The position numbers and the translations under genes were made by a program. Shown piece after piece: positions 2,291 through 54,956 of a stretch of 64,000 nucleotides of DNA. The notes under the pieces are model-generated. The model saw nothing but the letters and a program-made list of their open reading frames with translations. It did no database searches and had not been told where the DNA came from. The stretch lies in assembly GCA_950097015.1 (NCBI GenBank), contig CATNEN010000039.1:1-64000 (forward strand), written 5' to 3'. Numbering within the stretch: position 1 is the first letter of the stretch; each line of letters begins with the position of its first letter. Source of the stretch: Macrostomum hystrix. Taxonomy: Eukaryota; Animalia; Platyhelminthes.

Positions 2291-2378
2291 TAAATATAAA
2301 CTCTGAAATCCGAAAATGTGAAATGCAAATCGCAGATAAATTCTTTATTAACGATTCCCAAATTCTTAGTAACAAAGA

Positions 2379-21755: not shown

Positions 21756-22283
21756 ATATTAGCTATGCATGAAATGCTACACAAAATCAAGAGGCTGGTG
21801 ATAACTCCATTTAGTTTTACTATTTGTTCGCAGAAATTATCATCTTTTGAATGGTGTGCAGTAGATAGTTTAAATTATTGCAATTGCAACTATTCAAAAG
21901 GGGATTGATTGTTAGACCTGAATGTATTCAACAGGAACTGATTATCACATCAGCTGTAATATTCAAAGGGGCATTCATTGAAATGATATATTTGAAGAGG
22001 GTTGATTGTAGTATAATGATTTTATGCTCCTAACATGGCCATTTAGGCCCCTATCATATTTAAAATCATTCTTGTCTTTTATTGTTATCTAATTCTTATA
22101 TCTATAGTATCCATATAGGAGATTACATTAACCTGAGAGTAATTTCTTAGACTTGAAAAGTGGAACTTGAACTTTTGGCAATCAGAAGTAATATTGATAA
22201 TATTAGCTACACAAAATCAAGAGGCTGGAGATACTCTATTAAGTTTTACTATTTGTTTGCAGCATCAGCATCATTAAAACGCC

Positions 22284-23560: not shown

Positions 23561-24670
23561 TCAAAGAACTTGCACATTAGTTGCAACTAAATTACTAATA
23601 GTTGCATTATCTTCCTGCGCGGCAATCAGTCGCTCTTTTGTTACCGGCATGTGAAGAAAGTCAGTGAGCAGTTTCCGACAGGGAATTTCTTCTTCGTCAT
23701 CACTGAAGTAGTCTCTCGCATCTTCATATAACCCTTCATCTTCACTGTCACCATCATAGGTGTCTTCGATAATGTCTTCTACTGCGTCCTCAAAGATCTC
23801 CGTATCAGCGTAGCCACTCTCAATTAGGCTATTTTTATCACTCAAATTTTCAATTTCATCTTCAATAAGACGCCAGTCTTCGAGACTACCTCGAGACACA
23901 TAATGATCCGATGACATCTCCAACTTTTCGCTTCCTGTTTCAACTACTTCTTCCTCTCCCTTGGAAACTTCCTCGTAGACTTCTTCATGTTCAGATTCAG
24001 CTCCTTGCTCAATAGACTCGACTGCTGATAAGTTAATTTCCGCTTCTTTCTCATCAACCTCAGGCTCATACTCAAATTCTTTGTATTCTTCGTCAAGCTC
24101 AGCTTCAGACTTGTTACTCTCTTCATCAGCCGCAACTTCGGATTCTTCTAATTCTTCATCAGGCTCAAATTCAGATGCTCTTATTTCAAATTCTCCTTCA
24201 TCAGATTCAGCTTCGGATTCTTCTTCATCATACTCAGCTTCGAGTTCTTTAGACTCCTCTTCATCAGACTCAACTTCGGATTCATTAAATTCTTCTTCAT
24301 CAGACTCAGCTTCATTAAACTCTTCTTCATCAGACTCAGCTTCGGATTCTTTAAATTCTTCTTCATCAGACTCAGCTTCGGATTCATTAAATTCTTCTTC
24401 ATCAGACTCAGCTCCGGATTCATTAAATTCTTCTTCATCAGACTCAGCTTCATTAAACTCTTCTTCATCAGACTCAGCTTCGGATTCTTTAAATTCAGAC
24501 TCTTCTGAGTCCTTTTCTTTTTCTTCTTCACTACTACTATCTCTGAGCAATCTTTCACATTTCAATGCTGAGTTGATGATATTCTGTAAATTATCTGAGG
24601 CCAAAATTTCGCTAATAGTTACTCTAGAGGATCGGGGCCTCTCTGCTCGATCCTCGCTTTTCAGTTTCCC
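23561..24670 (-). CDS. ORF2 in the -1 frame after gag: ~367-aa Glu/Asp/Ser-rich protein with EAESDEEEF(N/K)E(S) repeats; probably expressed as a Gag fusion
   Basis: Open frame 23561..24739 overlaps the gag end in the -1 frame; no DSG/DTG protease, YxDD RT or integrase core motif seen. Confidence 0.7.
   Translation of the reverse strand, partial: GKLKSEDRAERPRSSRVTISEILASDNLQNIINSALKCERLLRDSSSEEEKEKDSEESEFKESEAESDEEEFNEAESDEEEFNESGAESDEEEFNESEAESDEEEFKESEAESDEEEFNEAESDEEEFNESEVESDEEESKELEAEYDEEESEAESDEGEFEIRASEFEPDEELEESEVAADEESNKSEAELDEEYKEFEYEPEVDEKEAEINLSAVESIEQGAESEHEEVYEEVSKGEEEVVETGSEKLEMSSDHYVSRGSLEDWRLIEDEIENLSDKNSLIESGYADTEIFEDAVEDIIEDTYDGDSEDEGLYEDARDYFSDDEEEIPCRKLLTDFLHMPVTKERLIAAQEDNATISNLVATNVQVL
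24627..24670 (-). promoter_or_regulatory. -1 programmed ribosomal frameshift signal
   Basis: Heptamer G GGA AAC (24670-24664) directly before the gag TGA; 8-nt spacer; 8-bp stem GAGGATCG/CGATCCTC (24655-24627) with 13-nt loop. Confidence 0.8.
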
Positions 24671-25758
24671 TGCTGCTGATTGGGATTGGCTGATCCAGAA
24701 CTTCGGCAGAACTTGGCAACATGCCCGCTCTTGCCACAACTGAAGCAGATCTGCGGCGGGCGATCCTGTTGCTGCTGCTGCTGATAGTTCTGCTTTTGAA
24801 TGTTTGACTGTTGTCTCTGCTGATAACTCTGCTGCTGATAATTCTGCTGCGGTCTCTGCTGATAGTTCGGCTGCTGATAATTCTGCTGTGGTCTGTGCTG
24901 ATAGTTCTGTTGCTGTTTCGGCTGGTAGTTCTGCTGCTGATAGTTCTGCTGCTGATGGTTCTGCTGATTGTAGTTCTGCGGCTGATAGTTCGGCTGCTGA
25001 TAATTCTGCTGCTGCCGTTGCTGCAAGTTCTGAGTGGCCATCTGGACACTGAGCATGAGTTCTTGCATGGTTCGCTTCTGTTGTTCCAATTCTTCTTGCT
25101 GTTTCAGCAGCATTTCTTCAATCCTGCTATGCTTTCTTTGTTCTGCTTCATCAGTCTTGGCCATCTTCATGCTGACGCCTTTGTGGGACATATTCCACGC
25201 TGTTTCCATGCGTCTCAGCATCCTTCGTGCATCTTGCAGAGTAGCTGGCGCAGCGAAGATAAGTTTTTCTCTAGTCTCAGCCGGAACTTTCACTCCTTTG
25301 ATGAATTGCTCTATTATTTCTTCTTCTCTTTGTTCTGCGGTCATATTCGGGAATGCTCTAGTAGCTAGTTCAATAAGAGCGTCGGAGAAACTTTCTACTG
25401 GTTCATTGCGTCCTTGGCAACGGCTTCTAAATTCTTCCCTAAACTCGGCAGAGCTTCCTGTTCTTCCGAAGCGTTCCACCAGTCTTTCTTTAAATTCTTC
25501 ATAGTCTAGATTGTCCGGCAAGTTCATACGCTGCACTGCGGCAAACGCAGTTGAGAGATCGAGGTTGGCTAGAAGCTCGCGCTTCCTGTGTGCCTCCTCT
25601 ATTCCTTCAGCTTCGCAGCGCTGGTCAAAGGCTGTCAGCCAAATTCTGATTTCCTGATTTGGCGTGTACTTTTGGATTTTGACATGTCTCATCGGTCCTA
25701 GCTCTAACCGATTTCTTAGTTCTTCCGCCAGCATGGCGATTGCATCATTGGCATTCAT
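24661..25758 (-). CDS. gag: Retrotransposon Gag, 365 aa (capsid-like region, coiled coil, Q/N/Y-rich repeats, CCHC zinc knuckle)
   Basis: YEEFKERLVERFG, major-homology-region-like RCQGRNEPVESFSDALIELATRAFP, EQFIKG, knuckle CFSCGKSGHVAKFC, QGN* end. Confidence 0.92.
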   Translation of the reverse strand: MNANDAIAMLAEELRNRLELGPMRHVKIQKYTPNQEIRIWLTAFDQRCEAEGIEEAHRKRELLANLDLSTAFAAVQRMNLPDNLDYEEFKERLVERFGRTGSSAEFREEFRSRCQGRNEPVESFSDALIELATRAFPNMTAEQREEEIIEQFIKGVKVPAETREKLIFAAPATLQDARRMLRRMETAWNMSHKGVSMKMAKTDEAEQRKHSRIEEMLLKQQEELEQQKRTMQELMLSVQMATQNLQQRQQQNYQQPNYQPQNYNQQNHQQQNYQQQNYQPKQQQNYQHRPQQNYQQPNYQQRPQQNYQQQSYQQRQQSNIQKQNYQQQQQQDRPPQICFSCGKSGHVAKFCRSSGSANPNQQQGN

Positions 25759-25825
25759 TGTTTGATTAATTTGACTATAAATGGCTTATTTCTAAGTAAG
25801 TTTCCGCTGCTTTTCCGATCCCTTT

Positions 25826-25840: not shown

Positions 25841-26438
25841 TGTCGTAGCGCCCCTCTCTTCTTCGTATTCCTCTTATTAATAATTCAAATTCTCCTCTTT
25901 CTAATAGTTCATTTGGAAACTGCCTCTTCCAGATTCCTTACTAATTTACCCTCGGTCACCCGTAGTGACCCGTTAATCCGCACCCTCACTGGGTGGGCTA
26001 ATACAAACTATGATAGTTTGGGTAGCGTGGCTTTCACACGATGTTTTTCTGGTCTCCTGCCAGTGATACTCTAGATTCTTAGATCTAGTTAATTCTGGAG
26101 ACTATGCTCACAGGTATTTCAGACACTGGGTCAGACAATTCGGGCTCTTTGGCCAGTCTGTACTCGGGCTTTCCCCGGATCGGAATGTTCGCAGTTTCCA
26201 CTTACTTTAGAAATAAGTAAGGCTTTGTAAGTTACTCGCGAGGAGAATTGAACTGTTTCTTAATAGGCTCGAAACGGTTAGTTTTTCCCTAAAGATTTTC
26301 CCTTGTATTTATATGAAACTGATTGGATATTCCCAGTATATTCTCAGTATATTTTACCACATTAAAACAAACCATTCGACAGAATATTTAAAAATATTTC
26401 AGGTACCAATTTGAATTTAACGAGTGAGGCCCGTCACA
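25841..26438 (-). repeat. Candidate 5' LTR, ~598 bp (TGTGACGG...CTACGACA)
   Basis: TG...CA termini, adjacent PBS, TATA-like ATATAAATAC near 26305-26314 on the minus strand. Outer boundary inferred because no second LTR is available. Confidence 0.65.
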
Positions 26439-26562
26439 ATAGCTCATATCTGCTATTATAGGAAGAAGATATCTATTTTTATAGGGCCCAAAGACAATAC
26501 AAACAAGTAGATAATAGAAGTAGAATGCAGAAAATTTGTTTGACTTTTGCGAATTGCCATCA

Positions 26563-26775
26563 CTTGCAGATGCGACCTGCTCTTCAAAGCGTGCTGAATT
26601 CTCTCCCTGTCCCAATTCTTGCAGATGCGACCTGCTCTTCAAAGCGTGCTGAATTCTCTCCCTGTCCCAATTCTTGCAGATGCGACCTGCTCTTCAAAGC
26701 GTGCTGAATTCTCTCCCTGTCCCAATTCTTGCAGATGCGACCTGCTCTTCAAAGCGTGCCGAGTTCTCTCCCTGT
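26563..26775 (+). repeat. 55-bp tandem repeat (TTCTCTCCCTGTCCCAATTCTTGCAGATGCGACCTGCTCTTCAAAGCGTGC(C/T)GA(A/G)); also at 31016-31192 and 36267-36443
   Basis: 3-4 tandem units at each locus; marks the 3' flank of the NTPase-nuclease gene unit. Confidence 0.92.
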
Positions 26776-27532
26776 GCCGCAATTCCTTATTCATCTCACC
26801 TCAATGCACTTTCACCTCAAACGCAATCAACATAATATTGTGCACCACGTGTCATTTTTCTATTTACTCCTTTTTCAGTTATTTGCAGTTATTTTCAAAA
26901 TAGAACATACACAAATTTTATTGAATAGACAAGGGCAAGAATTTTTTGGGTAAGAGGTAATTAGGAGATTTTACATATTCTGCTTTGAAAGAAACAATTA
27001 TAACGAATAATGGCACGCAGTTATTAATACATCTCGAAGCACGACATTTAGTAAAACCTCCAAGGTACAGCGAAAGTGCACAAATGCACCACTCACGAAA
27101 TTCAATAGAATATTTATTTATCGAACGCAAAACATGGGGCTCTATTTTCTAACAGATTCATTTATTTACATTTAGAACATTTATAAGAAACAGCCGGCCC
27201 CACACAACGTTGCATGCGCACTCAGTGTCAGCATTATTATTTTAATGATACAATTGTTTTAATGATCTGTAGTAATGTAATTATAATGTACATATGTAAT
27301 GTAATGTACATATGTAATGTAATGTACATATGTAATTATTTTAATAATATTATAATCCTTTCCAGTTTTGCATTTGTTTTTGCCTATGAAATCAATAAAT
27401 CCAATAAGAACTGCTTGTATTTACGCTCGCAATGTTGTTTTATTGTGCACAAAACATGGAGCATTGTTTTTTTGTTCATTTTTGCTTTAGACTGGAGAAT
27501 GAGGTGAGGGGTGGCTAGGTTGGGAATTGGGT
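26563..27532 (+). other. Diverged, gene-less 3' flank of a third copy of the NTPase-nuclease unit
   Basis: Shares the 55-bp repeats and the blocks ATTGTGCACCACGTGTC, GGCACGCAGTTATTAATAC and ATCAATAAATCCAATAAGAAC with 31016-32100, with indels. Confidence 0.85.
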
Positions 27533-27846
27533 GGCTAGGTGGGGAGGTTTGTCGGGCTAGGTGGGGAGTTGGCTAGGTGGGGAGTTGGCTAGGTGGGGAA
27601 TTCAATCCCCAATTGAATTGGGGAGTTGGGTGGCTTGGGTGTTTGTGTTTAGCAATGAGCATTTAGTGATGAGCATTTAGCAATGAGTGTTTAGCGATGA
27701 GCATTTAGCAATGAGTGTTTAGATTAGCAAGACTAGGAAATGCTGAAGCAGATGCGAAAGGAAATGACAAGGAACACCTGGCCCGAGAGTCAGCAGCCTG
27801 ATCAGTCAATCAGTCAGTCACTCGCTTCGCTCACATTTCAGCTCGC

Positions 27847-30800
27847 ATGCAGATGGCGCAGCCGTCGAAGGTGTGGACCCTGGACGATGTGGTAAGTAAT
27901 AAATATTAACTACTGAATTGCGACATGGTATGACATGAATTCAATGCACATCTTTAATTTGTTCTGCAGAAGCAACTTCTGGAGCACTTTCCATTCGGCT
28001 GCATATCCAGCAGTGGTGAAGAACTCTTTGGTATGCCGAGAAACTTCAGGCATGTTGCTTCGAGACTAACAGCCAATCCACAACTGACGTCGATTGTCAT
28101 GTATACTGGTGCATATCAAAGTGGGAAGACTCTCATTACCAATCTGTTGAAATCGCGATTTGATAAAGATGGCATCCCGTATTGTTCTGTGCCAGATTTG
28201 TCATGTCGGGCAAAAATAACAGAAACTCTACTGACGCTAGGAAATTGCCCTGATCCTAGGAAGTCATATTTTAGAGTTCCAGATTTTGCCGACTACGTGT
28301 TGCATATGGGTTTTCAACGCGAGAAGTTTAATCTTAAGCACCTTGCTATGAAGTTTCGTGAAGGTGAACGCGCTCCTATCCTGAGCAGGCAACAATCGCC
28401 ACCGTTGGCGATCTTCATCTATGATGAGACCACTAAGGTCGATACCACTCTTGGTTTTCGCGGGAGATCTGGCAGTGATCATATGTTGTATGATACCTCG
28501 CAGGCTTCGCTGCCGCCAGCGGCGGAACTTTTCTTTTGTGAGAGTGAAGCGCCCGTTAAAAGCAATTCGGTTCCTTTCCCATTAAATGCGACCACTGAAT
28601 CGGATAATTGTTTTTACTCGTTAAATCCGGAACAAAATATTTTCGGCAGATTTTGTCGCTGTCTTCTAGAATCCATGGACGGCAGCGGAAGAAGTTCTGT
28701 ACTGTTCTGCACTAGCCAGCTGTATTTCCCACAGTCCCAACAGGGTCTCAGTTCTTGGAATGGCCAATATGGTTTTTCTGGATCCGATCGCCAATACATA
28801 TGCAGGTACCTATCACCGCCAAGCATGCTTTGTTCCAAACACATCGAGCCAAATGACAAGACTCCGTGCAAAGCATCCAACTGTGTTGCTCGTTTTGTCC
28901 GAAAGAAACTTAAGCCTATCATTATTCAGGCTCGCGCTGCAAACATCGAAATCACTGAGGAAAATTGCCATACGTTGGTGATTGTGGGAATGTACCTGCT
29001 CAGCTCAGTCTACGATGCCTTCACGACGTTTCTAAACAGGTTGAACGATGTGAGCGCTTGTAAAACAGGTGCTAACAATTTCAATGGTATGCTCTCAGTA
29101 GCAGAGGAATGCATGCTAGGCACTTTGAAATCTAAGAAATGTCACAGAGGTTTGGAAAGGACTCTGCTCGTCACCTGTGGAGAGAACTCTCCTGACCGCA
29201 TTCGACTTCTAGCAAAGTTGGTCGTCGCAATTCTAACGAGTTATCCAGTTGACACTGGCCGCTTTGTGGTGAGAGAAGCACTTCGGAATTCGTTGTTCAG
29301 CCTCTCTGAGCCCTGCGACCTGTCCAGTGGCAAGATTCTGCCGCCTTTCACGGATTCTGTTTTTGCTTCCACTCAGTTTATCGTCCGGCCGGATTTCTGC
29401 CTCCTGAAGCTCTGCATTGAGATGATTCTGAACGCAAAGCCACGGATCCCATCGCGATTCAGGAGACAGATTGAATACGATATCAATAACATGAAGCCCA
29501 TTCTGACGCAACGTGATAAATGCCGACAAAGTTCTGGCACAGTGGCTGGCAACCAGTTTGAACGTGTCATGATCTCGAGGCTGCGCCTGATCCTCCGGAT
29601 GCTGCACCTTTCGGAGGTCAGATTTAATGAGAAAGAGAGTCCATCGCTATGCTCACTATTACACTGGGAGATTGTTGCATCGACCAACGTGATCTCTGAT
29701 CCGGACGACAGTGCGTCCTTGTCCGCGACCGCGACCTCACCTGATCCAGACAACACAGTGTACCCTGACGACACAGTGGATTCTGATCCAGATGATGCAG
29801 ATGATCCAGATGATGCAGCGCAGCACGTCCTCATGCCGCTTGGCGGCAGTATGTCTCCTGCTGTGAATTCAGTCCAATGTTCTGGTGATGCTGTGACATG
29901 GAGGAGCATTCAACGTAGCGCTAAAGTGCTGCGCTCTGCTCTGACAGCTACAGACGGAAGAGCTGGGATCCTGCTTGTCTCATCGGCTAATTGCAGGAGC
30001 AGTTTTTCCGGCGTCGATGTAGTAATGTTCTTTGCTCAGAAGAATCGCGTCGGCATCTACTTCATTGAGAGTAAGTAAATTTATTGCCAATGACAACTAA
30101 AAGAAAATTCGGAAATGAAAATTACCCTTTTAACACACTAACCCCGTGTCTTACATCCATAACAATTCCAGTGAAGTCGAGTGCTTTTGCAAATTCCCGA
30201 TCAACTGCTAAGGTGAAGCTTGATAAGTGCAGTGGATGGGCCAAATCTCTGAAGACTGAAACTGCAAGGGGTCTCGGTGTCGAGGAAGATGTTGTCTCCT
30301 GCATCTATGTCCTTGAGGCATGGAGGATAAGACAGCCTGAAAATCTTACTCTGATCGAGCCATTCGTCCAGTTCCTGTCATCCGACTTGTCCCCGGAACG
30401 ACTGTGTCGCATTCCCTCACTGGCCCTGATTGCGCCTTTGAATTTGATGGTCCACGAGGATTGCCTCATCAAATTAAAGAGGTGGGACTCGGGCACTTTG
30501 AACGAATCGATCGACTCTAACTACGAGAATCTTATTGTGGTAAGTTTGTGTATGGCTACTGCACCAACGAAGGATGTTAAAAATCGCTTGCATTTGAAAT
30601 TGAATGTATTTGTGACATTTTTTAAAATCTACCATTCTTAAATTATCGCCTACATTTGTTCCAGCCGGTGCCGGAGCGACTGACGACTGACGAGCGGTCC
30701 CCAGTGCCAGAAACATTGATTCATGATGAAGTGGAACAACTGAGACAGCAACTGAAGAGGGCGCAGCAGGAGAAGCAGCAGATGGCGAAGCAGCTGAAGG

Positions 30801-30937
30801 AGCTGGTAGAGAAGCAGCAGGCGCCAAAGCGTCAGTCGACGGAACCGATCTCTGCTAAGGAAAATTCTCCCTCGAAGCTGTCACGGCAGGCGTCGTCTCC
30901 GTCGCCGCTCACTCCGTCAATGAATGCGCTTCGCTAG
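27847..30937 (+). CDS. 4-exon gene join(27847..27891,27970..30070,30172..30539,30665..30937), ~928 aa: SAM-like header + P-loop NTPase + PD-(D/E)xK nuclease + coiled coil (Crinkler/RHS-type CR protein), copy 1
   Basis: Three GTAAGT...CAG introns that all keep frame (2787 nt total); Walker A GAYQSGKT (28108-28131), Walker B IFIYDE (28411-28428), GNQFE helix (29548-29562), SFSGVDVVMF...IYFIE-M-K across intron 2; N-terminal WTLDDVKQLL. Confidence 0.8.
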
Positions 30938-31742
30938 CGCGCTTCGCTATGCTAACTCCTATGTTTATTGTATGTATTGTGCCACGGCATTTTCATTTCC
31001 ATTGTACAGGATATATTCTCTCCCTGTCCCAATTCTTGCAGATGCGACCTGCTCTTCAAAGCGTGCCGAATTCTCTCCCTGTCCCAATTCTTGCAGATGC
31101 GACCTGCTCTTCAAAGCGTGCCGAGTTCTCTCCCTGTCCCAATTCTTGCAGATGCGACCTGCTCTTCAAAGCGTGCCGAGTTCTCTCCCTGTGCCGCAAT
31201 TCCTTATTCATCTCACCTCAATGCACTTTCACCTCAAACGCAATCAACATAATATTGTGCACCACGTGTCATTTTTCTATTTACTCCATTTTACTACATT
31301 TTTTACTACATATTACTACATTTTATGGCACGCAGTTATTAATACATCTCGAAGCACGACATTTAGTAAAACCTCCAAGGTACAGCGAAAGTGCACCAAT
31401 GCACCACTCACGAAATTCAATAGAATATTTATTTATCGAACGCAAAACATGGGGCTCTATTTTCTAACAGATTCATTTATTTACATTAAGAACATTTATA
31501 AGAAACAGCCGGCCCCACACAACGTTGCATGCGCACTCAGTGTCTGTGTCAGCATTATTATTTTAATGATAAAATTGTTTTAATGATATTTATTATTTTA
31601 TTGTAATTATTTTAATGATATTATAATCCTTTCTATACACTTTTTTTGTATCCAATTTCTTCAGGTCATGCAAACCTAAAATCGATTAATTTTGATTTCC
31701 TCATCTTGGTTGACCTGTAATAATAATACGGTGATAATTCAA

Positions 31743-31880
31743 GAGTAGGTTGGGTAGAGCGTAGGAGTAGGTTGGGTAGAGCGTAGGAGTAGGTTGGGTA
31801 GAGCGTAGGAGTAGGTTGGGTAGAGTGTTGGAGTAGGTTGGGTAGAGTGAAGGAGTAGAATGGGTAGGGTAGGTAGAGTA
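31743..31880 (+). repeat. 22-bp purine-rich repeat GAGTAGGTTGGGTAGAGCGTAG (second copy 36994-37153, one unit longer)
   Basis: Tandem units visible. Confidence 0.9.
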
Positions 31881-32096
31881 GAGAGCGGATTCTGAACGGG
31901 ATGAGAGGAGGCGGTATACAGGACGTGTCAACATAGTATTGTGCACCACGTGTCATTTTTCTGTTTTTGCTTTTGATATCAATAAATCCAATAAGAACTG
32001 CTCGTATTTACGCTCGCAATGTTGTTTTATTGTGCACAAAACATGGAGCATTGTTTTTTTGTTCATTTTTGCTTTAGACTGGAGAATGAGATGAGG

Positions 32097-32890
32097 GGTG
32101 GCTAGGTTGGGAATTGGGTGGCTAGGTGGGGAGTTGGGTGGCTAGGTTGGGAGGTTTGTCGGGCTAGGTGGGGAGTTGGCTAGGTGGGGAATTCGGTGGC
32201 TAGGTGGGGAATTGGGTGGCTAGGTGGGGAGTTGGGTGGCGAGGTGGGGAGTTGGGTGGCTAGGTTGGGAGGTTTGTCGGGCTAGTTGGGGAGTTGGCTA
32301 GGTGGGGAATTGGGTGGCTAGGTGGGGAGTTGGCTGGCTAGGTGGGGTGTTGGGTGGCTAGGTGGGGAGTTGGCTGGCTAGGTGGGGAGTTGGCTGGCTA
32401 GGTGGGGTGTTGGGTGGCTAGGTGGGCAGTTGGGTGGCTAGGTGGGGAGTTGGCTGGCTAGGTGGGGTGTTGGGTGGCTAGGTGGGCAGTTGGGTGGCTA
32501 GGTGGGGAGTTGGCTAGGTGGGGTGTTGGCTAGGTGGGGAGTTAGGTGGCTAGGTGGGGTGTTGGCTAGGTGGGGAGTTGGGTGGCTGGGTGGGCAGTTG
32601 GGTGGCTAGGTGGGGAGTTGGCTAGGTGGGGTGTTGGCTAGGTGGGGAGTTGGGTGGCTGGGTGGGCAGTTGGGTGGCTAGGTGGGCAGTTGGGTGGCTA
32701 GGTGGGGAGTTGGCTAGGTGGGGAGTTGGCTGGCTAGGTGGGCAGTTGGGTGGCTAGGTGGGGAGTTGGCTAGGTGGGGTGTTGGCTAGGTGGGGAGGTT
32801 TGTCGGGCTAGGTGGGGAGTTGGCTAGGTGGGGAGTTGGCTAGGTGGGGAATTCAATCCCCAATTGAATTGGGGAGTTGGGTGGCTTGGG
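32097..32890 (+). repeat. G-rich 16/20-bp minisatellite GGCTAGGTGGGGAGTT(GGGT), G-quadruplex potential; short version at 27508-27640
   Basis: Dense GGG/GGGG runs on the + strand directly upstream of each gene copy. Confidence 0.93.
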
Positions 32891-33097
32891 TGTTTGTGTT
32901 TAGCAATGAGCATTTAGTGATGAGCATTTAGCAATGAGTGTTTAGCGATGAGCATTTAGCAATGAGTGTTTAGATTAGCAAGACTAGGAAATGCTGAAGC
33001 AGATGCGAAAGGAAATGACAAGGAACACCTGGCCCGAGAGTCAGCAGCCTGATCAGTCAATCAGTCAGTCACTCGCTTCGCTCACATTTCAGCTCGC

Positions 33098-36000
33098 ATG
33101 CAGATGGCGCAGCCGTCGAAGGTGTGGACCCTGGACGATGTGGTAAGTAATAAATATTAACTACTGAATTGCGACATGGTATGACATGAATTCAATGCAC
33201 ATCTTTAATTTGTTCTGCAGAAGCAACTTCTGGAGCACTTTCCATTCGGCTGCATATCCAGCAGTGGTGAAGAACTCTTTGGTATGCCGAGAAACTTCAG
33301 GCATGTTGCTTCGAGACTAACAGCCAATCCACAACTGACGTCGATTGTCATGTATACTGGTGCATATCAAAGTGGGAAGACTCTCATTACCAATCTGTTG
33401 AAATCGCGATTTGATAAAGATGGCATCCCGTATTGTTCTGTGCCAGATTTGTCATGTCGGGCAAAAATAACAGAAACTCTACTGACGCTAGGAAATTGCC
33501 CTGATCCTAGGAAGTCATATTTTAGAGTTCCAGATTTTGCCGACTACGTGTTGCATATGGGTTTTCAACGCGAGAAGTTTAATCTTAAGCACCTTGCTAT
33601 GAAGTTTCGTGAAGGTGAACGCGCTCCTATCCTGAGCAGGCAACAATCGCCACCGTTGGCGATCTTCATCTATGATGAGACCACTAAGGTCGATACCACT
33701 CTTGGTTTTCGCGGGAGATCTGGCAGTGATCATATGTTGTATGATACCTCGCAGGCTTCGCTGCCGCCAGCGGCGGAACTTTTCTTTTGTGAGAGTGAAG
33801 CGCCCGTTAAAAGCAATTCGGTTCCTTTCCCATTAAATGCGACCACTGAATCGGATAATTGTTTTTACTCGTTAAATCCGGAACAAAATATTTTCGGCAG
33901 ATTTTGTCGCTGTCTTCTAGAATCCATGGACGGCAGCGGAAGAAGTTCTGTACTGTTCTGCACTAGCCAGCTGTATTTCCCACAGTCCCAACAGGGTCTC
34001 AGTTCTTGGAATGGCCAATATGGTTTTTCTGGATCCGATCGCCAATACATATGCAGGTACCTATCACCGCCAAGCATGCTTTGTTCCAAACACATCGAGC
34101 CAAATGACAAGACTCCGTGCAAAGCATCCAACTGTGTTGCTCGTTTTGTCCGAAAGAAACTTAAGCCTATCATTATTCAGGCTCGCGCTGCAAACATCGA
34201 AATCACTGAGGAAAATTGCCATACGTTGGTGATTGTGGGAATGTACCTGCTCAGCTCAGTCTACGATGCCTTCACGACGTTTCTAAACAGGTTGAACGAT
34301 GTGAGCGCTTGTAAAACAGGTGCTAACAATTTCAATGGTATGCTCTCAGTAGCAGAGGAATGCATGCTAGGCACTTTGAAATCTAAGAAATGTCACAGAG
34401 GTTTGGAAAGGACTCTGCTCGTCACCTGTGGAGAGAACTCTCCTGACCGCATTCGACTTCTAGCAAAGTTGGTCGTCGCAATTCTAACGAGTTATCCAGT
34501 TGACACTGGCCGCTTTGTGGTGAGAGAAGCACTTCGGAATTCGTTGTTCAGCCTCTCTGAGCCCTGCGACCTGTCCAGTGGCAAGATTCTGCCGCCTTTC
34601 ACGGATTCTGTTTTTGCTTCCACTCAGTTTATCGTCCGGCCGGATTTCTGCCTCCTGAAGCTCTGCATTGAGATGATTCTGAACGCAAAGCCACGGATCC
34701 CATCGCGATTCAGGAGACAGATTGAATACGATATCAATAACATGAAGCCCATTCTGACGCAACGTGATAAATGCCGACAAAGTTCTGGCACAGTGGCTGG
34801 CAACCAGTTTGAACGTGTCATGATCTCGAGGCTGCGCCTGATCCTCCGGATGCTGCACCTTTCGGAGGTCAGATTTAATGAGAAAGAGAGTCCATCGCTA
34901 TGCTCACTATTACACTGGGAGATTGTTGCATCGACCAACGTGATCTCTGATCCGGACGACAGTGCGTCCTTGTCCGCGACCGCGACCTCACCTGATCCAG
35001 ACAACACAGTGTACCCTGACGACACAGTGGATTCTGATCCAGATGATGCAGATGATCCAGATGATGCAGCGCAGCACGTCCTCATGCCGCTTGGCGGCAG
35101 TATGTCTCCTGCTGTGAATTCAGTCCAATGTTCTGGTGATGCTGTGACATGGAGGAGCATTCAACGTAGCGCTAAAGTGCTGCGCTCTGCTCTGACAGCT
35201 ACAGACGGAAGAGCTGGGATCCTGCTTGTCTCATCGGCTAATTGCAGGAGCAGTTTTTCCGGCGTCGATGTAGTAATGTTCTTTGCTCAGAAGAATCGCG
35301 TCGGCATCTACTTCATTGAGAGTAAGTAAATTTATTGCCAATGACAACTAAAAGAAAATTCGGAAATGAAAATTACCCTTTTAACACACTAACCCCGTGT
35401 CTTACATCCATAACAATTCCAGTGAAGTCGAGTGCTTTTGCAAATTCCCGATCAACTGCTAAGGTGAAGCTTGATAAGTGCAGTGGATGGGCCAAATCTC
35501 TGAAGACTGAAACTGCAAGGGGTCTCGGTGTCGAGGAAGATGTTGTCTCCTGCATCTATGTCCTTGAGGCATGGAGGATAAGACAGCCTGAAAATCTTAC
35601 TCTGATCGAGCCATTCGTCCAGTTCCTGTCATCCGACTTGTCCCCGGAACGACTGTGTCGCATTCCCTCACTGGCCCTGATTGCGCCTTTGAATTTGATG
35701 GTCCACGAGGATTGCCTCATCAAATTAAAGAGGTGGGACTCGGGCACTTTGAACGAATCGATCGACTCTAACTACGAGAATCTTATTGTGGTAAGTTTGT
35801 GTATGGCTACTGCACCAACGAAGGATGTTAAAAATCGCTTGCATTTGAAATTGAATGTATTTGTGACATTTTTTAAAATCTACCATTCTTAAATTATCGC
35901 CTACATTTGTTCCAGCCGGTGCCGGAGCGACTGACGACTGACGAGCGGTCCCCAGTGCCAGAAACATTGATTCATGATGAAGTGGAACAACTGAGACAGC

Positions 36001-36188
36001 AACTGAAGAGGGCGCAGCAGGAGAAGCAGCAGATGGCGAAGCAGCTGAAGGAGCTGGTAGAGAAGCAGCAGGCGCCAAAGCGTCAGTCGACGGAACCGAT
36101 CTCTGCTAAGGAAAATTCTCCCTCGAAGCTGTCACGGCAGGCGTCGTCTCCGTCGCCGCTCACTCCGTCAATGAATGCGCTTCGCTAG
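33098..36188 (+). CDS. Copy 2 of the SAM-like/NTPase/PD-(D/E)xK gene, join(33098..33142,33221..35321,35423..35790,35916..36188)
   Basis: Same translation and splice sites as copy 1 at offset +5251. Confidence 0.8.
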
Positions 36189-37367
36189 CGCGCTTCGCTA
36201 TGCTAACTCCTATGTTTATTGTATGTATTGTGCCACGGCATTTTCATTTCCATTGTACAGGATATATTCTCTCCCTGTCCCAATTCTTGCAGATGCGACC
36301 TGCTCTTCAAAGCGTGCCGAATTCTCTCCCTGTCCCAATTCTTGCAGATGCGACCTGCTCTTCAAAGCGTGCCGAGTTCTCTCCCTGTCCCAATTCTTGC
36401 AGATGCGACCTGCTCTTCAAAGCGTGCCGAGTTCTCTCCCTGTGCCGCAATTCCTTATTCATCTCACCTCAATGCACTTTCACCTCAAACGCAATCAACA
36501 TAATATTGTGCACCACGTGTCATTTTTCTATTTACTCCATTTTACTACATTTTTTACTACATATTACTACATTTTATGGCACGCAGTTATTAATACATCT
36601 CGAAGCACGACATTTAGTAAAACCTCCAAGGTACAGCGAAAGTGCACCAATGCACCACTCACGAAATTCAATAGAATATTTATTTATCGAACGCAAAACA
36701 TGGGGCTCTATTTTCTAACAGATTCATTTATTTACATTAAGAACATTTATAAGAAACAGCCGGCCCCACACAACGTTGCATGCGCACTCAGTGTCTGTGT
36801 CAGCATTATTATTTTAATGATAAAATTGTTTTAATGATATTTATTATTTTATTGTAATTATTTTAATGATATTATAATCCTTTCTATACACTTTTTTTGT
36901 ATCCAATTTCTTCAGGTCATGCAAACCTAAAATCGATTAATTTTGATTTCCTCATCTTGGTTGACCTGTAATAATAATACGGTGATAATTCAAGAGTAGG
37001 TTGGGTAGAGCGTAGGAGTAGGTTGGGTAGAGCGTAGGAGTAGGTTGGGTAGAGCGTAGGAGTAGGTTGGGTAGAGCGTAGGAGTAGGTTGGGTAGAGTG
37101 TTGGAGTAGGTTGGGTAGAGTGAAGGAGTAGAATGGGTAGGGTAGGTAGAGTAGAGAGCGGATTCTGAACGGGATGAGAGGAGGCGGTATACAGGACGTG
37201 TCAACATAGTATTGTGCACCACGTGTCATTTTTCTGTTTTTGCTTTTGATATCAATAAATCCAATAAGAACTGCTCGTATTTACGCTCGCAATGTTGTTT
37301 TATTGTGCACAAAACATGGAGCATTGTTTTTTTGTTCATTTTTGCTTTAGACTGGAGAATGAGATGA

Positions 37368-38420
37368 GGGGTGGCTAGGTTGGGAATTGGGTGGCTAGGT
37401 GGGGAGTTGGGTGGCTAGGTTGGGAGGTTTGTCGGGCTAGGTGGGGAGTTGGCTAGGTGGGGAATTCGGTGGCTAGGTGGGGAATTGGGTGGCTAGGTGG
37501 GGAGTTGGGTGGCGAGGTGGGGAGTTGGGTGGCTAGGTTGGGAGGTTTGTCGGGCTAGTTGGGGAGTTGGCTAGGTGGGGAATTGGGTGGCTAGGTGGGG
37601 AGTTGGCTGGCTAGGTGGGGTGTTGGGTGGCTAGGTGGGGAGTTGGCTGGCTAGGTGGGGAGTTGGCTGGCTAGGTGGGGTGTTGGGTGGCTAGGTGGGC
37701 AGTTGGGTGGCTAGGTGGGGAGTTGGCTGGCTAGGTGGGGTGTTGGGTGGCTAGGTGGGCAGTTGGGTGGCTAGGTGGGGAGTTGGCTAGGTGGGGTGTT
37801 GGCTAGGTGGGGAGTTAGGTGGCTAGGTGGGGTGTTGGCTAGGTGGGGAGTTGGGTGGCTGGGTGGGCAGTTGGGTGGCTAGGTGGGGAGTTGGCTAGGT
37901 GGGGTGTTGGCTAGGTGGGGAGTTGGGTGGCTGGGTGGGCAGTTGGGTGGCTAGGTGGGCAGTTGGGTGGCTAGGTGGGGAGTTGGCTAGGTGGGGAGTT
38001 GGCTGGCTAGGTGGGCAGTTGGGTGGCTAGGTGGGGAGTTGGCTAGGTGGGGTGTTGGCTAGGTGGGGAGTTGGGTGGCTAGGTGGGGAGTTGGGTGGCT
38101 AGGTGGGGAGTTGGCTGGCTAGGTGGGCAGTTGGGTGGCTAGGTGGGGAGTTGGCTAGGTGGGGTGTTGGCTAGGTGGGGAGTTAGGTGGCTAGGTGGGG
38201 TGTTGGCTAGGTGGGGAGTTGGGTGGCTGGGTGGGCAGTTGGGTGGCTAGGTGGGCAGTTGGGTGGCTAGGTAGGGAGTTGGCTGGCTAGGTGGGCAGTT
38301 GGGTGGCTAGGTGGGGAGTTGGCTAGGTGGGGTGTTGGCTAGGTGGGGAGTTGGGTGGCTAAAAGGGCAGTTGGGTGGCTAGGTGGGCAGTTGGGTGGCT
38401 AGTTGGGGAGTTGGCTAGAT
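37368..38420 (+). repeat. G-rich 16/20-bp minisatellite, longest tract; ends the gene array
   Basis: Same unit as 32097-32890, extended by ~350 bp past the duplication breakpoint. Confidence 0.93.
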
Positions 38421-39237
38421 GTTGGCTAGTTTTTTATTTTTTGTTGGATAATCATTTCTGTTCACAAAATGATTCCAGGGCTGTCTATTGTCGCGCCAGT
38501 CTGCGATGGCAGAGGTGGCAGAGGTCACCACTGAGGTGGCAGAAGATGAGTGGTGCCCCAGGCACCATTTAAGCTGCTGCCAAAAGTTGCTGGCCAATAC
38601 GTGCCGTAGGAAACATTGTCCAAGAGACAATGATTTCTACGCAATCTGCAATCGGCCAGGCTGCTTTTGGGGGCAAAATTCATGGTGCGAGGGGCCAGTT
38701 CCTTCGTGTTCTAAGCCGTCTTCGCCGCCTAAGCCTGGTTTAGACTGGCAAAGCTGCACTGTGCGGACCGCTTCTGCAAAATATCGTTGGTCCGTTCGTT
38801 TGGCTGCCAAACGTGCCGCAACTGGCAAAGTGCCAAGCCTAGCCACGCTGGCCAGTCTGGCGGCTTGCAGAAGCGGACCACTGCCACTGCACTTATGCAG
38901 TTGTGGTGTGCGGAAGGTTTTGGTCACCGACCTATGAATGAGTGACCCCTTAACGAAAAAACGGCCTTTTTCAGGGCCACCAAATTCGTGATTCTTGCGT
39001 TTAGTCAACTCTTTTAACTCCGCCATTGCCGGTCCCCAGCCCGGATGAAAAAGGAGGAGGGAAAGAAAATATACACATGCTCACGTTCGTGTCACTGTTT
39101 TTCTGTTTTCATTTTTGATAAAACTGTCTTGCCATTTTCCACTTGAAATGTCTCATGATGCTTTTTGTCTTTCTTATTTTCCGCATTACGTTGTAAATTG
39201 TAAACTAACGAAAGTAGTCAACTAAAAAGTCGCGAAG

Positions 39238-39390
39238 TCTGGTATCTGTTTGGCATTGGCATAGTGTCTGGCATGTGTCTGGCATCAGTTTGGCATTGTG
39301 TCTGGCATCGGCGTCTGTCTGGTGACTGTCTTGCATCTGTTTGGCATGGTGTCTGGCATTGGCATGTCTGGCATCTGTTTGGCATAAGCA
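39238..39390 (+). repeat. Short degenerate (GTCT/GTTT)GGCAT repeat
   Basis: About 10 TGGCAT motifs. Confidence 0.7.
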
Positions 39391-39956
39391 TCTCATGTGT
39401 GTATTTTTTAACTGATGGGTATAAAAGTGCAAGCAAAGCGCAGTTAAAAAACATTCTTTTGTGTGTGTGCTTTGCCTTTTTAGCTAAAACTAACAGTTAT
39501 AGTTTAATTTATATTTAACATAAACTTCTCTCGCGCTGCACATTTAACAATTTAGTAGCTTGGTCAGCAAACAAAGGAAGACAAAAAAGACCCAGGATTA
39601 TTAGCTTTATGCTACAAGTGTTATGCATTTCTAATCACTGCGTTGAATAGCACATATCAGTTTATGGTATCTAAATATCGTGGTGGAGGAATCCACTTGA
39701 TGGACGTTAGTATTCGTCATTCGAGTAATTAGGAGTCTGAATTGAAAAGCCAGGATGGGATTGAGAAGATTTCAGTAGTGTATTCAGAGAAGCGATCAGG
39801 ACGAGCAAAAAATGAGAAAAGAAAGGCATTATTATTAGAGTAGCGTTCAGGGCGAGATGTGGAAAATTGAAGATTTGGATCGGGGAAATCGTGATTAAAA
39901 TAGAAATTTGGGTCTACGAGGTGCATTCAAAAAGTTCTTTTCGGTCCTTTGGCATT

Positions 39957-54202: not shown

Positions 54203-54956
54203 ACTCGAGGCCAGCCGCCCAGCTCTGCGTGGGCAGCAACTCGAGGAGCCGCCGCCCCGATTCCGCATCGCCGGGCCAGACGACGAAGCACGATTCCCTG
54301 GTAGCGCTTGCGCCGACCGCCAGGGGCTCGCCCTTCAGTTGAAGTTGCCACAACATAGCATCTATGTTGCGGCAAATGTCGCTGAGCTGTTCGCTGCTCA
54401 GCCTTTTCCCGTCTCTGCCGGTGATGATGACGGCAGGTTGCCTACGTGCGATGGCGGCGTAGGTAGCTTGTGGTCCCGGGCCCTGTCCGGTGGCGTCCCC
54501 ACCCTCGGGATCTGCGTCGGCGGTGGGCACAGGGCCCTCCGCCTCCGCTTCTCCTTCGGGCCGGGCAGCCGTCCGGATGGGCGCCGGGCCCTCCTTGGCC
54601 CGCGACCCTGGCCTCGGGGCGTCGTGGGCTCCGCCCCGTGCAGGAGCCTGGGCAGGAGGCACAAGGCCCCCCGCCCCAGCCCCCGCCCTAGGCAGAGCCC
54701 CTTCGGCCCCTCTGGCCTGGGCCTGGTCCTTGGACAATGGAGCCGACGTGCCGTGGGCCAGCATGCGCCTACGGCGTTTTGCCGCTCCAGAGGTGGTGGA
54801 GCGCTTAGCGCCCCGGTCATCGCGCGAGTTGGGCAGCGCGGCATTTGTGGCGGTCGCGGGGCCAGCTAGCCCGGGCGCCGCAGCGTGTATGGCCTCAGGC
54901 ACCATGGTGTCCTCGGCCGGAGCAGTTGAAGGGCTAGAAGCCATTGAAAGCTGCAA
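54203..54956 (-). pseudogene. 3'-truncated non-LTR ORF1 (DUF4780-like)
   Basis: ~250 open codons running into the satellite; motif resemblance by eye. Confidence 0.6.

What the first reader, a model, noticed from the sequence alone, without database searches (positions are those of the whole stretch)
27847..36188. Subtelomeric tandem array of an intact spliced SAM-like + NTPase + PD-(D/E)xK nuclease gene (Crinkler/RHS-type architecture) in an animal-like genome
Seen: three separate ORFs of the track (681, 185 and 93 aa) plus a 15-codon first exon join through three canonical GTAAGT..CAG introns into one ~928-aa protein. It has WTLDDVKQLL (like the W-x-x-x-D-V start of SAM domains), Walker A GAYQSGKT, Walker B IFIYDE, a sensor-like SVLFCTS strand, GNQFE, SFSGVDVVMF, IYFIEMK and a C-terminal coiled coil. 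Known: header + NTPase + restriction-endonuclease fold is the layout of CR proteins (oomycete/chytrid Crinkler effectors and trypanosome RHS proteins, the latter subtelomeric and tandemly amplified), proposed to derive from transposases. Inference: this is an amplifying CR-like nuclease family in a TTAGGG-telomere organism, acting as an immunity/toxin effector, a selfish drive locus or the enzyme of an unclassified mobile unit. It is the best candidate for an undescribed system in this window.
Basis: partly seen in the sequence, partly recalled or inferred. Interest (0 to 1): 0.9.

Follow-up and report, generated by a model that had tools for sequence, protein, structure and literature searches.

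The report
Orphan flatworm NTPase gene, tandemly duplicated
Two identical tandem copies of a real, spliced and expressed gene of a Macrostomum flatworm encode a 928-residue protein with ATP-binding motifs that is likely an NTP-driven enzyme and possibly a nuclease, but it has no detectable relatives anywhere and its proposed Crinkler/RHS kinship could not be confirmed.

Summary
Exons 27847-27891, 27970-30070, 30172-30539 and 30665-30937 join into a 928-codon frame with no internal stop. Contigs from four public runs of two studies lack exactly these three GT..AG introns. Their 5' ends carry the 3' part of the Macrostomum lignano spliced leader. The window is therefore flatworm DNA, and the gene is expressed and trans-spliced.

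A second copy at +5251 is identical over 4294 bases. There are only two copies in the window. The (CCCTAA)n array 20 kb away is internal to the window, so "subtelomeric" is unproven.

- **NTPase:** Walker A and Walker B are present, and protein-language-model features point to AAA_22/STAND-type NTPases.
- **No relatives:** nothing matched in Pfam, NCBIfam, PADLOC, PDB sequences, 5.8 billion clusters or 1.84 billion representatives.
- **Nuclease:** it rests on a D698...E715-x-K717 motif and a low-confidence alpha-beta-beta-beta prediction. Fold searches found no nuclease.
- **SAM domain or Crinkler header:** there is no room for either.

A related species' copy differs mostly by amino-acid-changing substitutions, 24 of the 28 listed. 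My reading is a lineage-restricted, fast-evolving P-loop NTPase, possibly nuclease-coupled, with a likely role in genetic conflict.

The parts
27840..27846 (+). Trans-splice acceptor (AG at 27840-27841) and 5-nt 5' UTR. In mRNA the Macrostomum spliced leader is joined here.
   Evidence: In 4 of 4 runs the contigs carry a 21-23 nt loose 5' end...GCGAAGACTCAATTTATTGCAT, at 27841. This equals the 3' part of the 35-nt M. lignano SL printed in PMC8629364. The sequence 'tttcag' precedes it.
27847..27891 (+). Exon 1, 15 codons (MQMAQPSKVWTLDDV).
27892..27969 (+). Intron 1 (78 nt, GTAAGT..CAG).
   Evidence: The joint that skips these 78 nt appears in 4 of 4 runs.
27970..30070 (+). Exon 2 (700 codons plus 1 base). 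Holds the NTPase motifs, a helical middle part, an acidic low-complexity stretch and the first part of the candidate nuclease module.
28108..28131 (+). Walker A, GAYQSGKT (residues 62-69), preceded by the hydrophobic strand SIVMYT.
28411..28428 (+). Walker B, IFIYDE (residues 163-168).
28696..28716 (+). SVLFCTS strand (residues 258-264), a candidate sensor-1 strand.
   Evidence: The motif is located. Its role is inferred.
29698..29826 (+). Acidic D/P/S-rich low-complexity linker (about residues 592-634). It carries in-frame indels in the related species.
30001..30069 (+). SFSGVD...IYFIE: candidate PD-(D/E)xK strands beta2 and beta3, with D698 at 30016-30018 and E715 at 30067-30069.
   Evidence: The motif is located. 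The 90-aa AF2 model (pLDDT 60) gives helix, strand, strand, strand here. No nuclease fold match was found.
30071..30171 (+). Intron 2 (101 nt). It splits the E-x-K motif after the first base of the M716 codon.
   Evidence: The joint 30070/30172 appears in 4 of 4 runs and in X9 and X10 of the related organism C.
30172..30539 (+). Exon 3 (K717 at 30174-30176, then 121 further codons).
30540..30664 (+). Intron 3 (125 nt).
30665..30937 (+). Exon 4: coiled-coil stretch (residues 860-890, nt 30728-30820), an S/P-rich tail and the TAG stop.
   Evidence: Pfam gives only weak sub-threshold coiled-coil-type hits.
33098..36188 (+). Copy 2 of the gene (exons 33098-33142, 33221-35321, 35423-35790, 35916-36188), letter-identical to copy 1.
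27532..31825 (+). The 4294-bp block that is 100% identical to 32783-37076 (period 5251).
   Evidence: Gapped alignment 27502-32841 against 32756-38116 is 99.3% identical.
32096..32839 (+). G-rich 20-mer minisatellite (GGGTGGCTAGGTGGGGAGTT)n between the copies. A longer array lies at 37369-38414 after copy 2 and a short one at about 27502-27603 before copy 1. Likely the substrate of unequal crossing-over.
   Evidence: The mechanism is inferred.
26563..27603 (+). Degenerate remnant of the unit's 3' flank upstream of copy 1 (93-99% identical in pieces), with no gene.

Best explanation
This is a real, expressed, spliced-leader trans-spliced four-exon gene of a Macrostomum flatworm, present as two identical tandem copies, whose 928-residue intracellular protein is likely an AAA_22/STAND-like P-loop NTPase that would use NTP binding or hydrolysis to control a small C-terminal alpha/beta module, possibly a PD-(D/E)xK nuclease, with a coiled coil predicted to mediate oligomerisation.

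Shown:
- The gene model, its splicing and the spliced leader.
- The duplication.
- The Walker A and Walker B motifs and the D...ExK motif.
- The absence of any detectable homologue in the libraries searched.
- An excess of amino-acid-changing differences against a related species, with the reading frame mostly kept.

Inferred:
- The NTPase fold class.
- Nuclease activity.
- Oligomerisation.
- A role in genetic conflict, either defence against invading nucleic acids or a selfish or toxin-like function, suggested by fast protein evolution and by local duplication between minisatellites in satellite-rich DNA.
- Duplication by unequal crossing-over between the G-rich minisatellite arrays that flank each unit.
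For: Gene and expression:
- The frame is 928 codons with canonical introns.
- All three junctions and the SL 5' end appear in contigs of 4 of 4 runs from 2 studies, while genomic run X1 is unspliced.
- The SL is identical to the published M. lignano SL (passages read).

NTPase:
- G-x4-GKT follows a hydrophobic strand, and hhhhDE lies 95 residues further on.
- In the Atlas search of residues 1-330 of exon 2, 10 of the 10 best named clusters are AAA_22/AAA_16/nSTAND/KAP/NACHT-type NTPases at 0.90-0.92.
- The Atlas search of the whole exon also lists NTPase clusters, and two clusters that combine an NTPase with Mrr_cat, at 0.84-0.85. These are leads only.

Nuclease candidate:
- D698 lies 17 residues before E715-M-K717, and both follow hydrophobic runs.
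- AF2 places them on two consecutive strands after a helix and a strand, in both models.
- The 17/19 spacing is close to the 16/18 spacing of the invariant D203...Q219-x-K221 of E. coli Mrr relatives.

Location: there is no signal-peptide-like or membrane-span-like hydrophobic stretch (maximum KD19 1.49; N-terminal 30 residues -0.08).

Fast evolution with the frame kept:
- 24 of the 28 listed exon-2 substitutions against organism C are non-synonymous.
- That gives pN/pS 1.8. P(>=24 of 28) is 0.19 at omega 1 and 8.6e-5 at omega 0.3.
- Listed indels are 5+1, 3 and +9 nt, i.e. in frame.
- Divergence is lowest around Walker A (6 of 148 letters) and at 29160-29421 (6 of 262). It is highest in the insert between Walker B and SVLFCTS (30 of 310).

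Duplication: 4294 identical bases at period 5251, with flanking minisatellites of different lengths, 744 against 1046 bp.
Against: - No profile or sequence search found any relative or family. Pfam gave 0 families for exon 2 at E<=1, and NCBIfam and PADLOC gave 0.
- PDB sequence searches gave 0 or one chance hit.
- None of 7996 scored candidates matched in the 5.8-billion-cluster search, and there were 0 hits among 1.84 billion representatives.
- The AF2 model of exon 2 is unusable (pLDDT 36.5). The 90-residue model is only pLDDT 60 and lacks the part encoded by exon 3.
- hhalign of the spliced protein against a shallow Mrr_cat alignment gave probability 0.6% or less, and at a different site.
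- The helix preceding the candidate strands carries no acidic residue.
- The Atlas notes that shuffled proteins reach 0.9 in 4-10 of 100 cases.
- One 2-nt deletion is listed in one low-depth contig of organism C.
- Only 40 difference rows were shown and 103 were not; 28 of the shown rows lie in exon 2. The substitution sample is therefore partial.
- pN/pS near 1 also fits relaxed constraint.
Confidence: 0.4

Rival explanations
1. It is a STAND/AAA_22-like NTPase with no nuclease. The protein would be an NTP-dependent switch or scaffold, for example in signalling or assembly. The D...ExK pattern would be a chance match in a small alpha/beta or protein-binding domain.
For: - The NTPase leads are the only supported feature.
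- Every test of the nuclease came back empty or inconclusive.
- By my own estimate, not a call, a pattern of four hydrophobic residues followed by E-x-K is expected by chance about 0.07 times in a protein of this size and composition.
- Earlier follow-ups in this scan on other genomes also failed to confirm nuclease motifs that first readers proposed beside NTPases (notes e1-7142049 and e1-7381036). I did not check those notes.
Against: - D and ExK sit on consecutive predicted strands, with spacing typical of Mrr-type enzymes.
- Two Atlas clusters that combine an NTPase with Mrr_cat appear among the leads.
Confidence: 0.35
2. It is a true member of the Crinkler/RHS-type (CR) class, a header-less NTPase + HTH + REase toxin module. 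It would be related by descent to oomycete CRN C-termini and trypanosome RHS proteins.
For: - The order NTPase motifs, long helical region, D...ExK module matches the commonest CR C-terminal layout, NTPase + HTH + REase, as summarised in PMC5289972.
- CR homologues in animals and degenerate headers are in print (PMC12957317, Introduction and abstract read).
- Tandem copies in repeat-rich DNA recall CRN and RHS loci.
Against: - No Pfam family of any kind matches at E<=1.
- There were 0 hits among 1.84 billion representatives and none in the 5.8-billion-cluster collection, whose listed sources include UniRef, NCBI and EukProt.
- There is no header: only 46 residues lie before the NTPase strand.
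- The primary CR paper (Zhang et al. 2016) is not held, so its family definitions could not be compared.
Confidence: 0.1
3. It is the enzyme of a mobile or selfish DNA unit. The 5.25-kb unit would be, or would derive from, a transposon-like element that amplifies itself.
For: - The copies are identical.
- The surroundings are satellite- and repeat-rich, with a gag-like CCHC ORF nearby.
- NTPase + REase pairs are linked to transposons in prokaryotes, according to PMC5289972.
Against: - No inverted repeats of 25 nt or more occur in 26000-39500.
- Unit borders are minisatellites, not termini.
- The gene has three spliceosomal introns and a trans-spliced leader, like host genes.
- Only two copies are in the window.
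- The orthologue in a related species keeps an intron position.
Confidence: 0.08
4. It is a young orphan gene drifting without enzymatic function. The Walker and D...ExK motifs would be remnants or chance, and the transcript would encode a protein under little or no selection.
For: pN/pS of about 1.8 is not significantly above 1 (P 0.19). There are no homologues. AF2 confidence is low.
Against: - A 928-codon frame across four exons is kept open.
- Indels in the related species are mostly in frame.
- Divergence is uneven, with the Walker A region among the most conserved.
- The Atlas recognition value of 2388 is in the range of known families.
- Spliced contigs appear in all four transcript-type runs.
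Confidence: 0.07

Closest known systems
CR (Crinkler/RHS-type) proteins with NTPase + HTH + REase C-termini (oomycete CRNs, trypanosome RHS). Known to me through PMC5289972 (section 11 and passages read) and PMC12957317 (abstract and Introduction read). The primary paper, Zhang et al. 2016, is not held.
   Same: - The same order of a P-loop NTPase motif set, a long helical stretch and a candidate D...ExK module.
- Intracellular.
- Tandem copies in repeat-rich DNA.
- Fast-evolving.
   Different: - No header domain (46 residues before the NTPase).
- No sequence or profile similarity to any family.
- The REase fold is not demonstrated.
- A coiled-coil and S/P-rich tail.
- Spliceosomal introns and an SL.
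- The host is a free-living flatworm.
Bacterial and archaeal AAA_22/AAA_16/nSTAND NTPases, some fused to Mrr_cat restriction-type nucleases (Pfam names as given by the Atlas).
   Same: - Language-model features of the N-terminal 330 residues of exon 2 resemble these families at 0.90-0.92.
- Walker A and B grammar.
- Possible coupling of an NTPase to a nuclease.
   Different: - No HMMER-detectable similarity.
- hhalign against an Mrr_cat alignment gave probability 0.6% or less.
- A roughly 60-90-residue variable insert lies between Walker B and the next core strand.
- It is a eukaryotic, intron-bearing gene.
Chromosome-end, lineage-only NTPase-like gene families reported by earlier follow-ups of this scan in a diplomonad (notes e1-7142049 and e1-7141960; unchecked AI notes).
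   Different: A different organism and size (928 against 1650-1744 residues). No sequence relation was tested. Here only two copies are seen.

Membership tests
CR (Crinkler/RHS-type) proteins | N-terminal header domain (Ubl-type with LxLFLAK, about 130 residues, or another header). | tested here: not met
   Only 46 residues precede the strand SIVMYT before Walker A. The header length comes from the PMC12957317 Introduction. No LxLFLAK is present. Header loss is described for animal CR-like proteins in that paper, so this alone does not exclude descent.
CR (Crinkler/RHS-type) proteins | Sequence or profile similarity to CR C-terminal domains (CR-NTPase, CR-REase, RHS protein families). | tested here: not met
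   Pfam gave 0 families for exon 2 at E<=1, and for exon 3 only DUF6647 at E 0.15. There were 0 hits among 1.84 billion representatives and none among 7996 scored candidates. I did not verify that dedicated CR models are in the Pfam copy.
CR (Crinkler/RHS-type) proteins | Domain order NTPase, HTH, REase. | tested here: inconclusive
   The motif order fits. The helical middle part is predicted only at pLDDT 35-52. Neither an HTH nor a REase fold was established.
P-loop NTPases (ASCE; AAA_22/STAND-like) | Walker A, G-x4-GK[ST], after a hydrophobic strand. | tested here: met
   SIVMYTGAYQSGKT, residues 56-69.
P-loop NTPases (ASCE; AAA_22/STAND-like) | Walker B, hhhhD[DE]. | tested here: met
   IFIYDE, residues 163-168; the only such match in the protein.
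P-loop NTPases (ASCE; AAA_22/STAND-like) | Profile or fold match to a P-loop family. | tested here: inconclusive
   HMM libraries found nothing. AF2 is unusable in this part (pLDDT 25-37). Atlas features: 10 of the 10 best named clusters are NTPase families at 0.90-0.92, which the tool rates as a lead.
PD-(D/E)xK (restriction-endonuclease-fold) nucleases | D ... (D/E)-x-K motif on consecutive strands beta2 and beta3. | tested here: met
   D698 and E715-M-K717. They lie at the start of one predicted strand and the end of the next (pLDDT about 65). This is met at the motif level only.
PD-(D/E)xK (restriction-endonuclease-fold) nucleases | Alpha-beta-beta-beta-alpha-beta core fold resembling solved nucleases. 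| tested here: inconclusive
PD-(D/E)xK (restriction-endonuclease-fold) nucleases | Profile similarity to a nuclease family. | tested here: not met
   No Pfam match. PDB phmmer of the 78-residue piece gave 0 hits at E<=10. hhalign against an Mrr_cat alignment of 14 sequences gave probability 0.6% or less. That alignment is shallow and the query is a single sequence, so this is a weak test.
SAM domain | A five-helix bundle of about 65-70 residues (size recalled, from no call) starting with W-x3-[DE]-V. | tested here: inconclusive
   WTLDDV is present, but only about 46 residues lie before the NTPase strand. The exon-2 part gave no SAM family at E<=1. The exon 1-2 join could not be submitted to the profile tools.

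The most novel reading that the evidence does not exclude
A flatworm-restricted, header-less NTPase-nuclease toxin or defence family with no detectable sequence relatives in any public collection. It would evolve under diversifying selection and multiply by minisatellite-mediated unequal crossing-over beside telomere-type repeats. That would make it an independent animal counterpart of trypanosome RHS and oomycete Crinkler loci.
Probability: 0.2. Interest if true: 0.7.

Novelty: new variant of a known kind. Interest (0 to 1): 0.42.

Why it matters
If the NTPase-nuclease reading is right, Macrostomum would carry a lineage-specific, fast-evolving nucleic-acid-targeting enzyme. Macrostomum is a laboratory model with RNAi, transgenesis and in situ methods (my recall, from no call). 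The enzyme would sit in unstable, repeat-rich DNA. That would give a tractable animal system for asking what header-less Crinkler/RHS-like proteins do in free-living organisms, a question raised in PMC12957317.

If only the NTPase holds, this is one more orphan STAND-like gene. The practical result is a verified gene model: four exons, SL trans-spliced, two identical copies. The protein is invisible to all sequence-based annotation.

Tried and rejected
- **Sequence searches, all empty.** Pfam, NCBIfam and PADLOC on the exons. PDB sequence searches with exon 2, its first 330 residues and its last 78 residues. The 5.8-billion-cluster word search. The exhaustive HMMER search of 1.84 billion representatives (after two refusals for a full queue).
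- **No genome or earlier notes.** No whole genome is held for the window, so genome-wide copy number and chromosomal distribution could not be examined. There are no earlier scan notes for this genome or sequence.
- **AF2 of exon 2 without an alignment.** pLDDT was 36.5, so it was not used for fold search.
- **Mrr_cat comparison.** I looked for NTPase-fused Mrr_cat proteins to build a comparison profile. The 'longer' search gave 4 proteins, none with an NTPase. The 120 proteins listed by the 'near' search were all at least 80% identical to E. coli Mrr. The resulting 14-sequence alignment gave hhalign probability 0.6% or less.
- **Other local checks.** No Rfam family in the window. No SL sequence in the window. 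No inverted repeats around the units.
- **RNA holders.** 'No RNA holder listed' by the look-up of sequencing runs. The runs laid are nevertheless transcript-like, because their contigs are spliced and carry the SL.
- **3' end of the mRNA.** Contigs stop at 31044-31045 in 4 runs, but a 55-bp tandem repeat starts at 31015. This may be an assembly break, and no AATAAA was seen before it.
- **Literature.** The search for the SL 3' letters found nothing. The search on Macrostomum telomeric repeats and satellites found nothing relevant. PMC10468722 had no useful passage. Zhang et al. 2016 is not held under its DOI or PMC id.
- **Full spliced protein.** It could not be given to the profile, fold or Atlas tools because it is a joined sequence. 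It was used only inside scripts.
Full report
**What is in the sequence.**
Stop-to-stop frames of 706, 188 and 103 codons lie on the + strand at 27958-30078, 30075-30641 and 30626-30937. The same three recur at 33209-35329, 35326-35892 and 35877-36188. An ATG lies at 27847. Donors GTAAGT follow 27891, 30070 and 30539, and acceptors CAG precede 27970, 30172 and 30665. Joined in a script, the four exons give 2787 nt, which is 928 codons plus a stop, with no internal stop.

| Motif | Residues |
|---|---|
| GAYQSGKT | 62-69 |
| IFIYDE | 163-168 |
| SVLFCTS | 258-264 |
| GNQFE | 542-546 |
| SFSGVD | 693-698 |
| IYFIEMK | 711-717 |
| Q/K/E-rich heptad-like stretch | 860-890 |

**Transcript evidence.**
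One search for public runs listed 11 holders from 4 studies. I laid 8 of them.
- Runs X2 and X6 (study P2) and X3 and X5 (study P1) each have contigs that skip exactly 27891/27970, 30070/30172 and 30539/30665, with GT..AG ends.
- One X3 contig of 2923 nt covers 27841-31044 with all three introns removed and no other difference.
- The large genomic run X1 has a 3352-nt contig over 27693-31044 that keeps the introns, and shows no such joint.
- The joined form is therefore RNA-derived, even though the runs' kind is recorded only as a guess.

**Spliced leader and organism.**
In all four transcript-type runs the contig continues 5' of 27841 with 21-23 letters that are not in the window. These letters are the 3' part of the 35-nt Macrostomum lignano spliced leader printed in PMC8629364 (passages read). 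The acceptor is tttcag at 27836-27841. So the window is DNA of a Macrostomum flatworm, and the mRNA is SL trans-spliced 5 nt upstream of the ATG. The AUG at the end of the SL is out of frame with the main ATG. By my reading it opens a frame of 17 codons that ends in TGA across the exon 1-2 junction.

**Duplication and surroundings.**
- At an offset of 5251 the sequence is letter-identical from 27532 to 31825, and all four exons of copy 2 are identical.
- Each unit ends in a G-rich 20-mer minisatellite, at 32096-32839 and 37369-38414, with a short version at about 27502-27603.
- The arrays differ in length, and a 22-mer array has 5.7 against 6.7 copies. This argues for two real loci rather than one locus assembled twice.
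- Upstream of copy 1 there is only a degenerate remnant of the 3' flank (26563-27603).
- tBLASTn of the spliced protein against the window finds only the two copies.
- No inverted repeats of 25 nt or more occur in 26000-39500.
- The (CCCTAA)n array at 2378-7381 (834 units, 99% matches) lies 20 kb to the left. It has non-telomeric sequence on both sides. Whether this is a chromosome end cannot be decided here, because no whole genome is held.
- The rest of the window is mostly satellites. There is also a gag-like ORF with a weak CCHC zinc knuckle on the minus strand.

**Searching for relatives.**
Nothing was found at any level of sequence comparison.
- Pfam gave 0 families for the 700-residue exon 2 at E<=1. 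It gave only sub-threshold noise for exons 3 and 4.
- NCBIfam and PADLOC gave 0.
- PDB chain sequences gave 0, apart from one chance hit at E 1.3.
- The word-indexed search of 5.8 billion clusters scored 7996 candidates, none at E<=0.001.
- The exhaustive phmmer run over 1,835,955,588 representatives gave 0 hits at E<=0.001.
- The protein itself is absent from these collections. "No relatives" therefore means none outside Macrostomum as far as these libraries reach.

**Related Macrostomum-type organisms.**
Runs of organism C (X9, X10) carry contigs over exon 2 with 2-10% other letters, and they keep the 30070/30172 junction. Organism D (X11) carries genomic pieces with 2-9% other letters.

**How it evolves.**
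- Of the 28 exon-2 substitutions that one search listed for organism C, 24 change the amino acid and 4 do not. Only 40 difference rows were shown and 103 were not.
- With 1613.7 non-synonymous and 486.3 synonymous sites, this gives pN/pS 1.8.
- Getting 24 or more of 28 has probability 0.19 at omega 1, 0.0066 at omega 0.5 and 8.6e-5 at omega 0.3. Strong purifying selection is excluded. Positive selection is not demonstrated.
- Listed indels are 5+1, 3 and +9 nt, all in frame. The 9-nt insertion falls after a complete codon in the loop before SFSGVD. One 2-nt deletion is listed in one contig of depth 4.5.
- Divergence is uneven. It is 6 of 148 letters around Walker A, 6 of 262 at 29160-29421, and 30 of 310 across Walker B and the insert that follows it (table 8).

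**The NTPase claim.**
Walker A follows a hydrophobic strand, Walker B lies 95 residues downstream, and each pattern occurs once in the protein. The Atlas comparison of residues 1-330 of exon 2 with named clusters returned ten clusters at 0.90-0.92, all AAA_22, AAA_16, nSTAND1, KAP, AAA_35 or NACHT-type NTPases or ABC_tran. The tool warns that shuffled proteins reach 0.9 in 4-10 of 100 cases, so this is a lead. Together with the motifs I put the NTPase at about 0.85. No HMM and no structure confirms it.

**The nuclease claim.**
- D698 and E715-x-K717 follow hydrophobic runs, and intron 2 splits the ExK motif.
- AF2 without an alignment predicts helix, strand, strand, strand for the end of exon 2. 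It does so both in the 700-residue model (local pLDDT about 53-55) and in a 90-residue model (pLDDT 60, pTM 0.50).
- D698 sits just before the second strand and E715 at the end of the third. In a hairpin they would face each other (inference).
- The 17/19 spacing is close to the invariant D203...Q219-x-K221 of Mrr relatives.
- hhalign of the spliced protein, run inside a script, gave probability 0.6% or less against a shallow Mrr_cat alignment, and at another site.
- The half of the domain encoded by exon 3 could not be included in any fold job.
- I rate the nuclease at about 0.35-0.4.

**SAM and CR header.**
Only 46 residues precede the NTPase strand, and no SAM family matched the exon-2 part. 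A CR header of about 130 residues (PMC12957317 Introduction) cannot fit. The protein has no signal-peptide-like or membrane-span-like stretch.

**Comparison with the known.**
According to PMC5289972 (section 11 read), NTPase + HTH + REase is the commonest CR C-terminal layout. It makes up just over a quarter of CR C-termini. The REase is thought to be the toxic part and the NTPase its regulator, and CRN genes can lie head-to-tail in repeat-rich DNA. PMC12957317 (abstract and Introduction read) reports CR homologues in animals with degenerate headers that behave as selfish elements.

The present protein has the same order of motifs and a similar genomic setting. It fails the two membership features that could be tested, the header and the profile similarity, and the third (the folds) is inconclusive. 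So it may work like a header-less CR module, but it cannot be filed as one. The primary CR paper is not held. Earlier follow-ups in this scan on other genomes also could not confirm nuclease motifs proposed beside NTPases. Those are unchecked notes and only add caution.

**Verdict.**
It is a real, expressed, duplicated, fast-evolving orphan gene for a likely P-loop NTPase, with a possible nuclease module. Crinkler/RHS membership, the SAM domain, the subtelomeric location and amplification beyond two copies are not shown.

Noticed in passing
window 27836-27846 (and 33087-33097): The mRNA is trans-spliced to the Macrostomum lignano spliced leader at a tttcag acceptor 5 nt before the start codon. 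The SL's own terminal AUG is out of frame and opens a short upstream frame of 17 codons that ends across the exon 1-2 junction.
   Followed up: partly
window 2378-7381: A 5-kb, 99% pure (CCCTAA)n array (834 units) lies inside the window. About 2.4 kb of 14-, 27- and 28-mer satellites lie on its left, and a 21-mer satellite follows directly on its right. It is either an interstitial telomere-type array or an assembly join at a chromosome end.
   Followed up: partly
window 9589-17890: A 385-bp satellite with 21.5 copies at 99% identity. The unit contains a GC-rich palindrome (CTAGAGGCGCC...GGCGCCTCTAG). No Rfam family matches.
   Followed up: no
window 40947-64000 and 8471-9589: A 16-mer satellite (TCCTATGAGAGCCGAT) fills the last 23 kb of the window (about 1445 units, 83% matches). 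It also occurs as a 1.1-kb block next to the telomere-type array. GC rises to 0.61 at 54001-56000 inside it.
   Followed up: no
window 23561-25785, minus strand: A gag-like ORF of 374 codons with a Q/N-rich repeat and a CCHC zinc knuckle (zf-CCHC E 0.0028, below Pfam's cut-off). It overlaps a 518-codon ORF with long acidic SE/DE repeats. This may be a retroelement remnant or a domesticated gag.
   Followed up: partly
window 32096-32839, 37369-38414, about 27502-27603: G-rich 20-mer minisatellites (GGGTGGCTAGGTGGGGAGTT)n bound each gene unit and differ in length between units. Their runs of G could form G-quadruplexes (not tested).
   Followed up: no
window 31015-31202, 36266-36453, 26563-26785: A 55-bp tandem repeat (3.4-4 copies) lies just downstream of the stop codon. 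All transcript contigs end at its start (31044-31045), and its depth in the runs is much higher than that of the gene. It is therefore a dispersed repeat.
   Followed up: partly
window 20405-21738: Two arrays of a 67-bp repeat (4.9 and 8.9 copies) lie in an AT-rich stretch (GC 0.31 at 20001-22000), together with an exact 300-bp direct repeat at 19984-20283 and 20742-21041.
   Followed up: no
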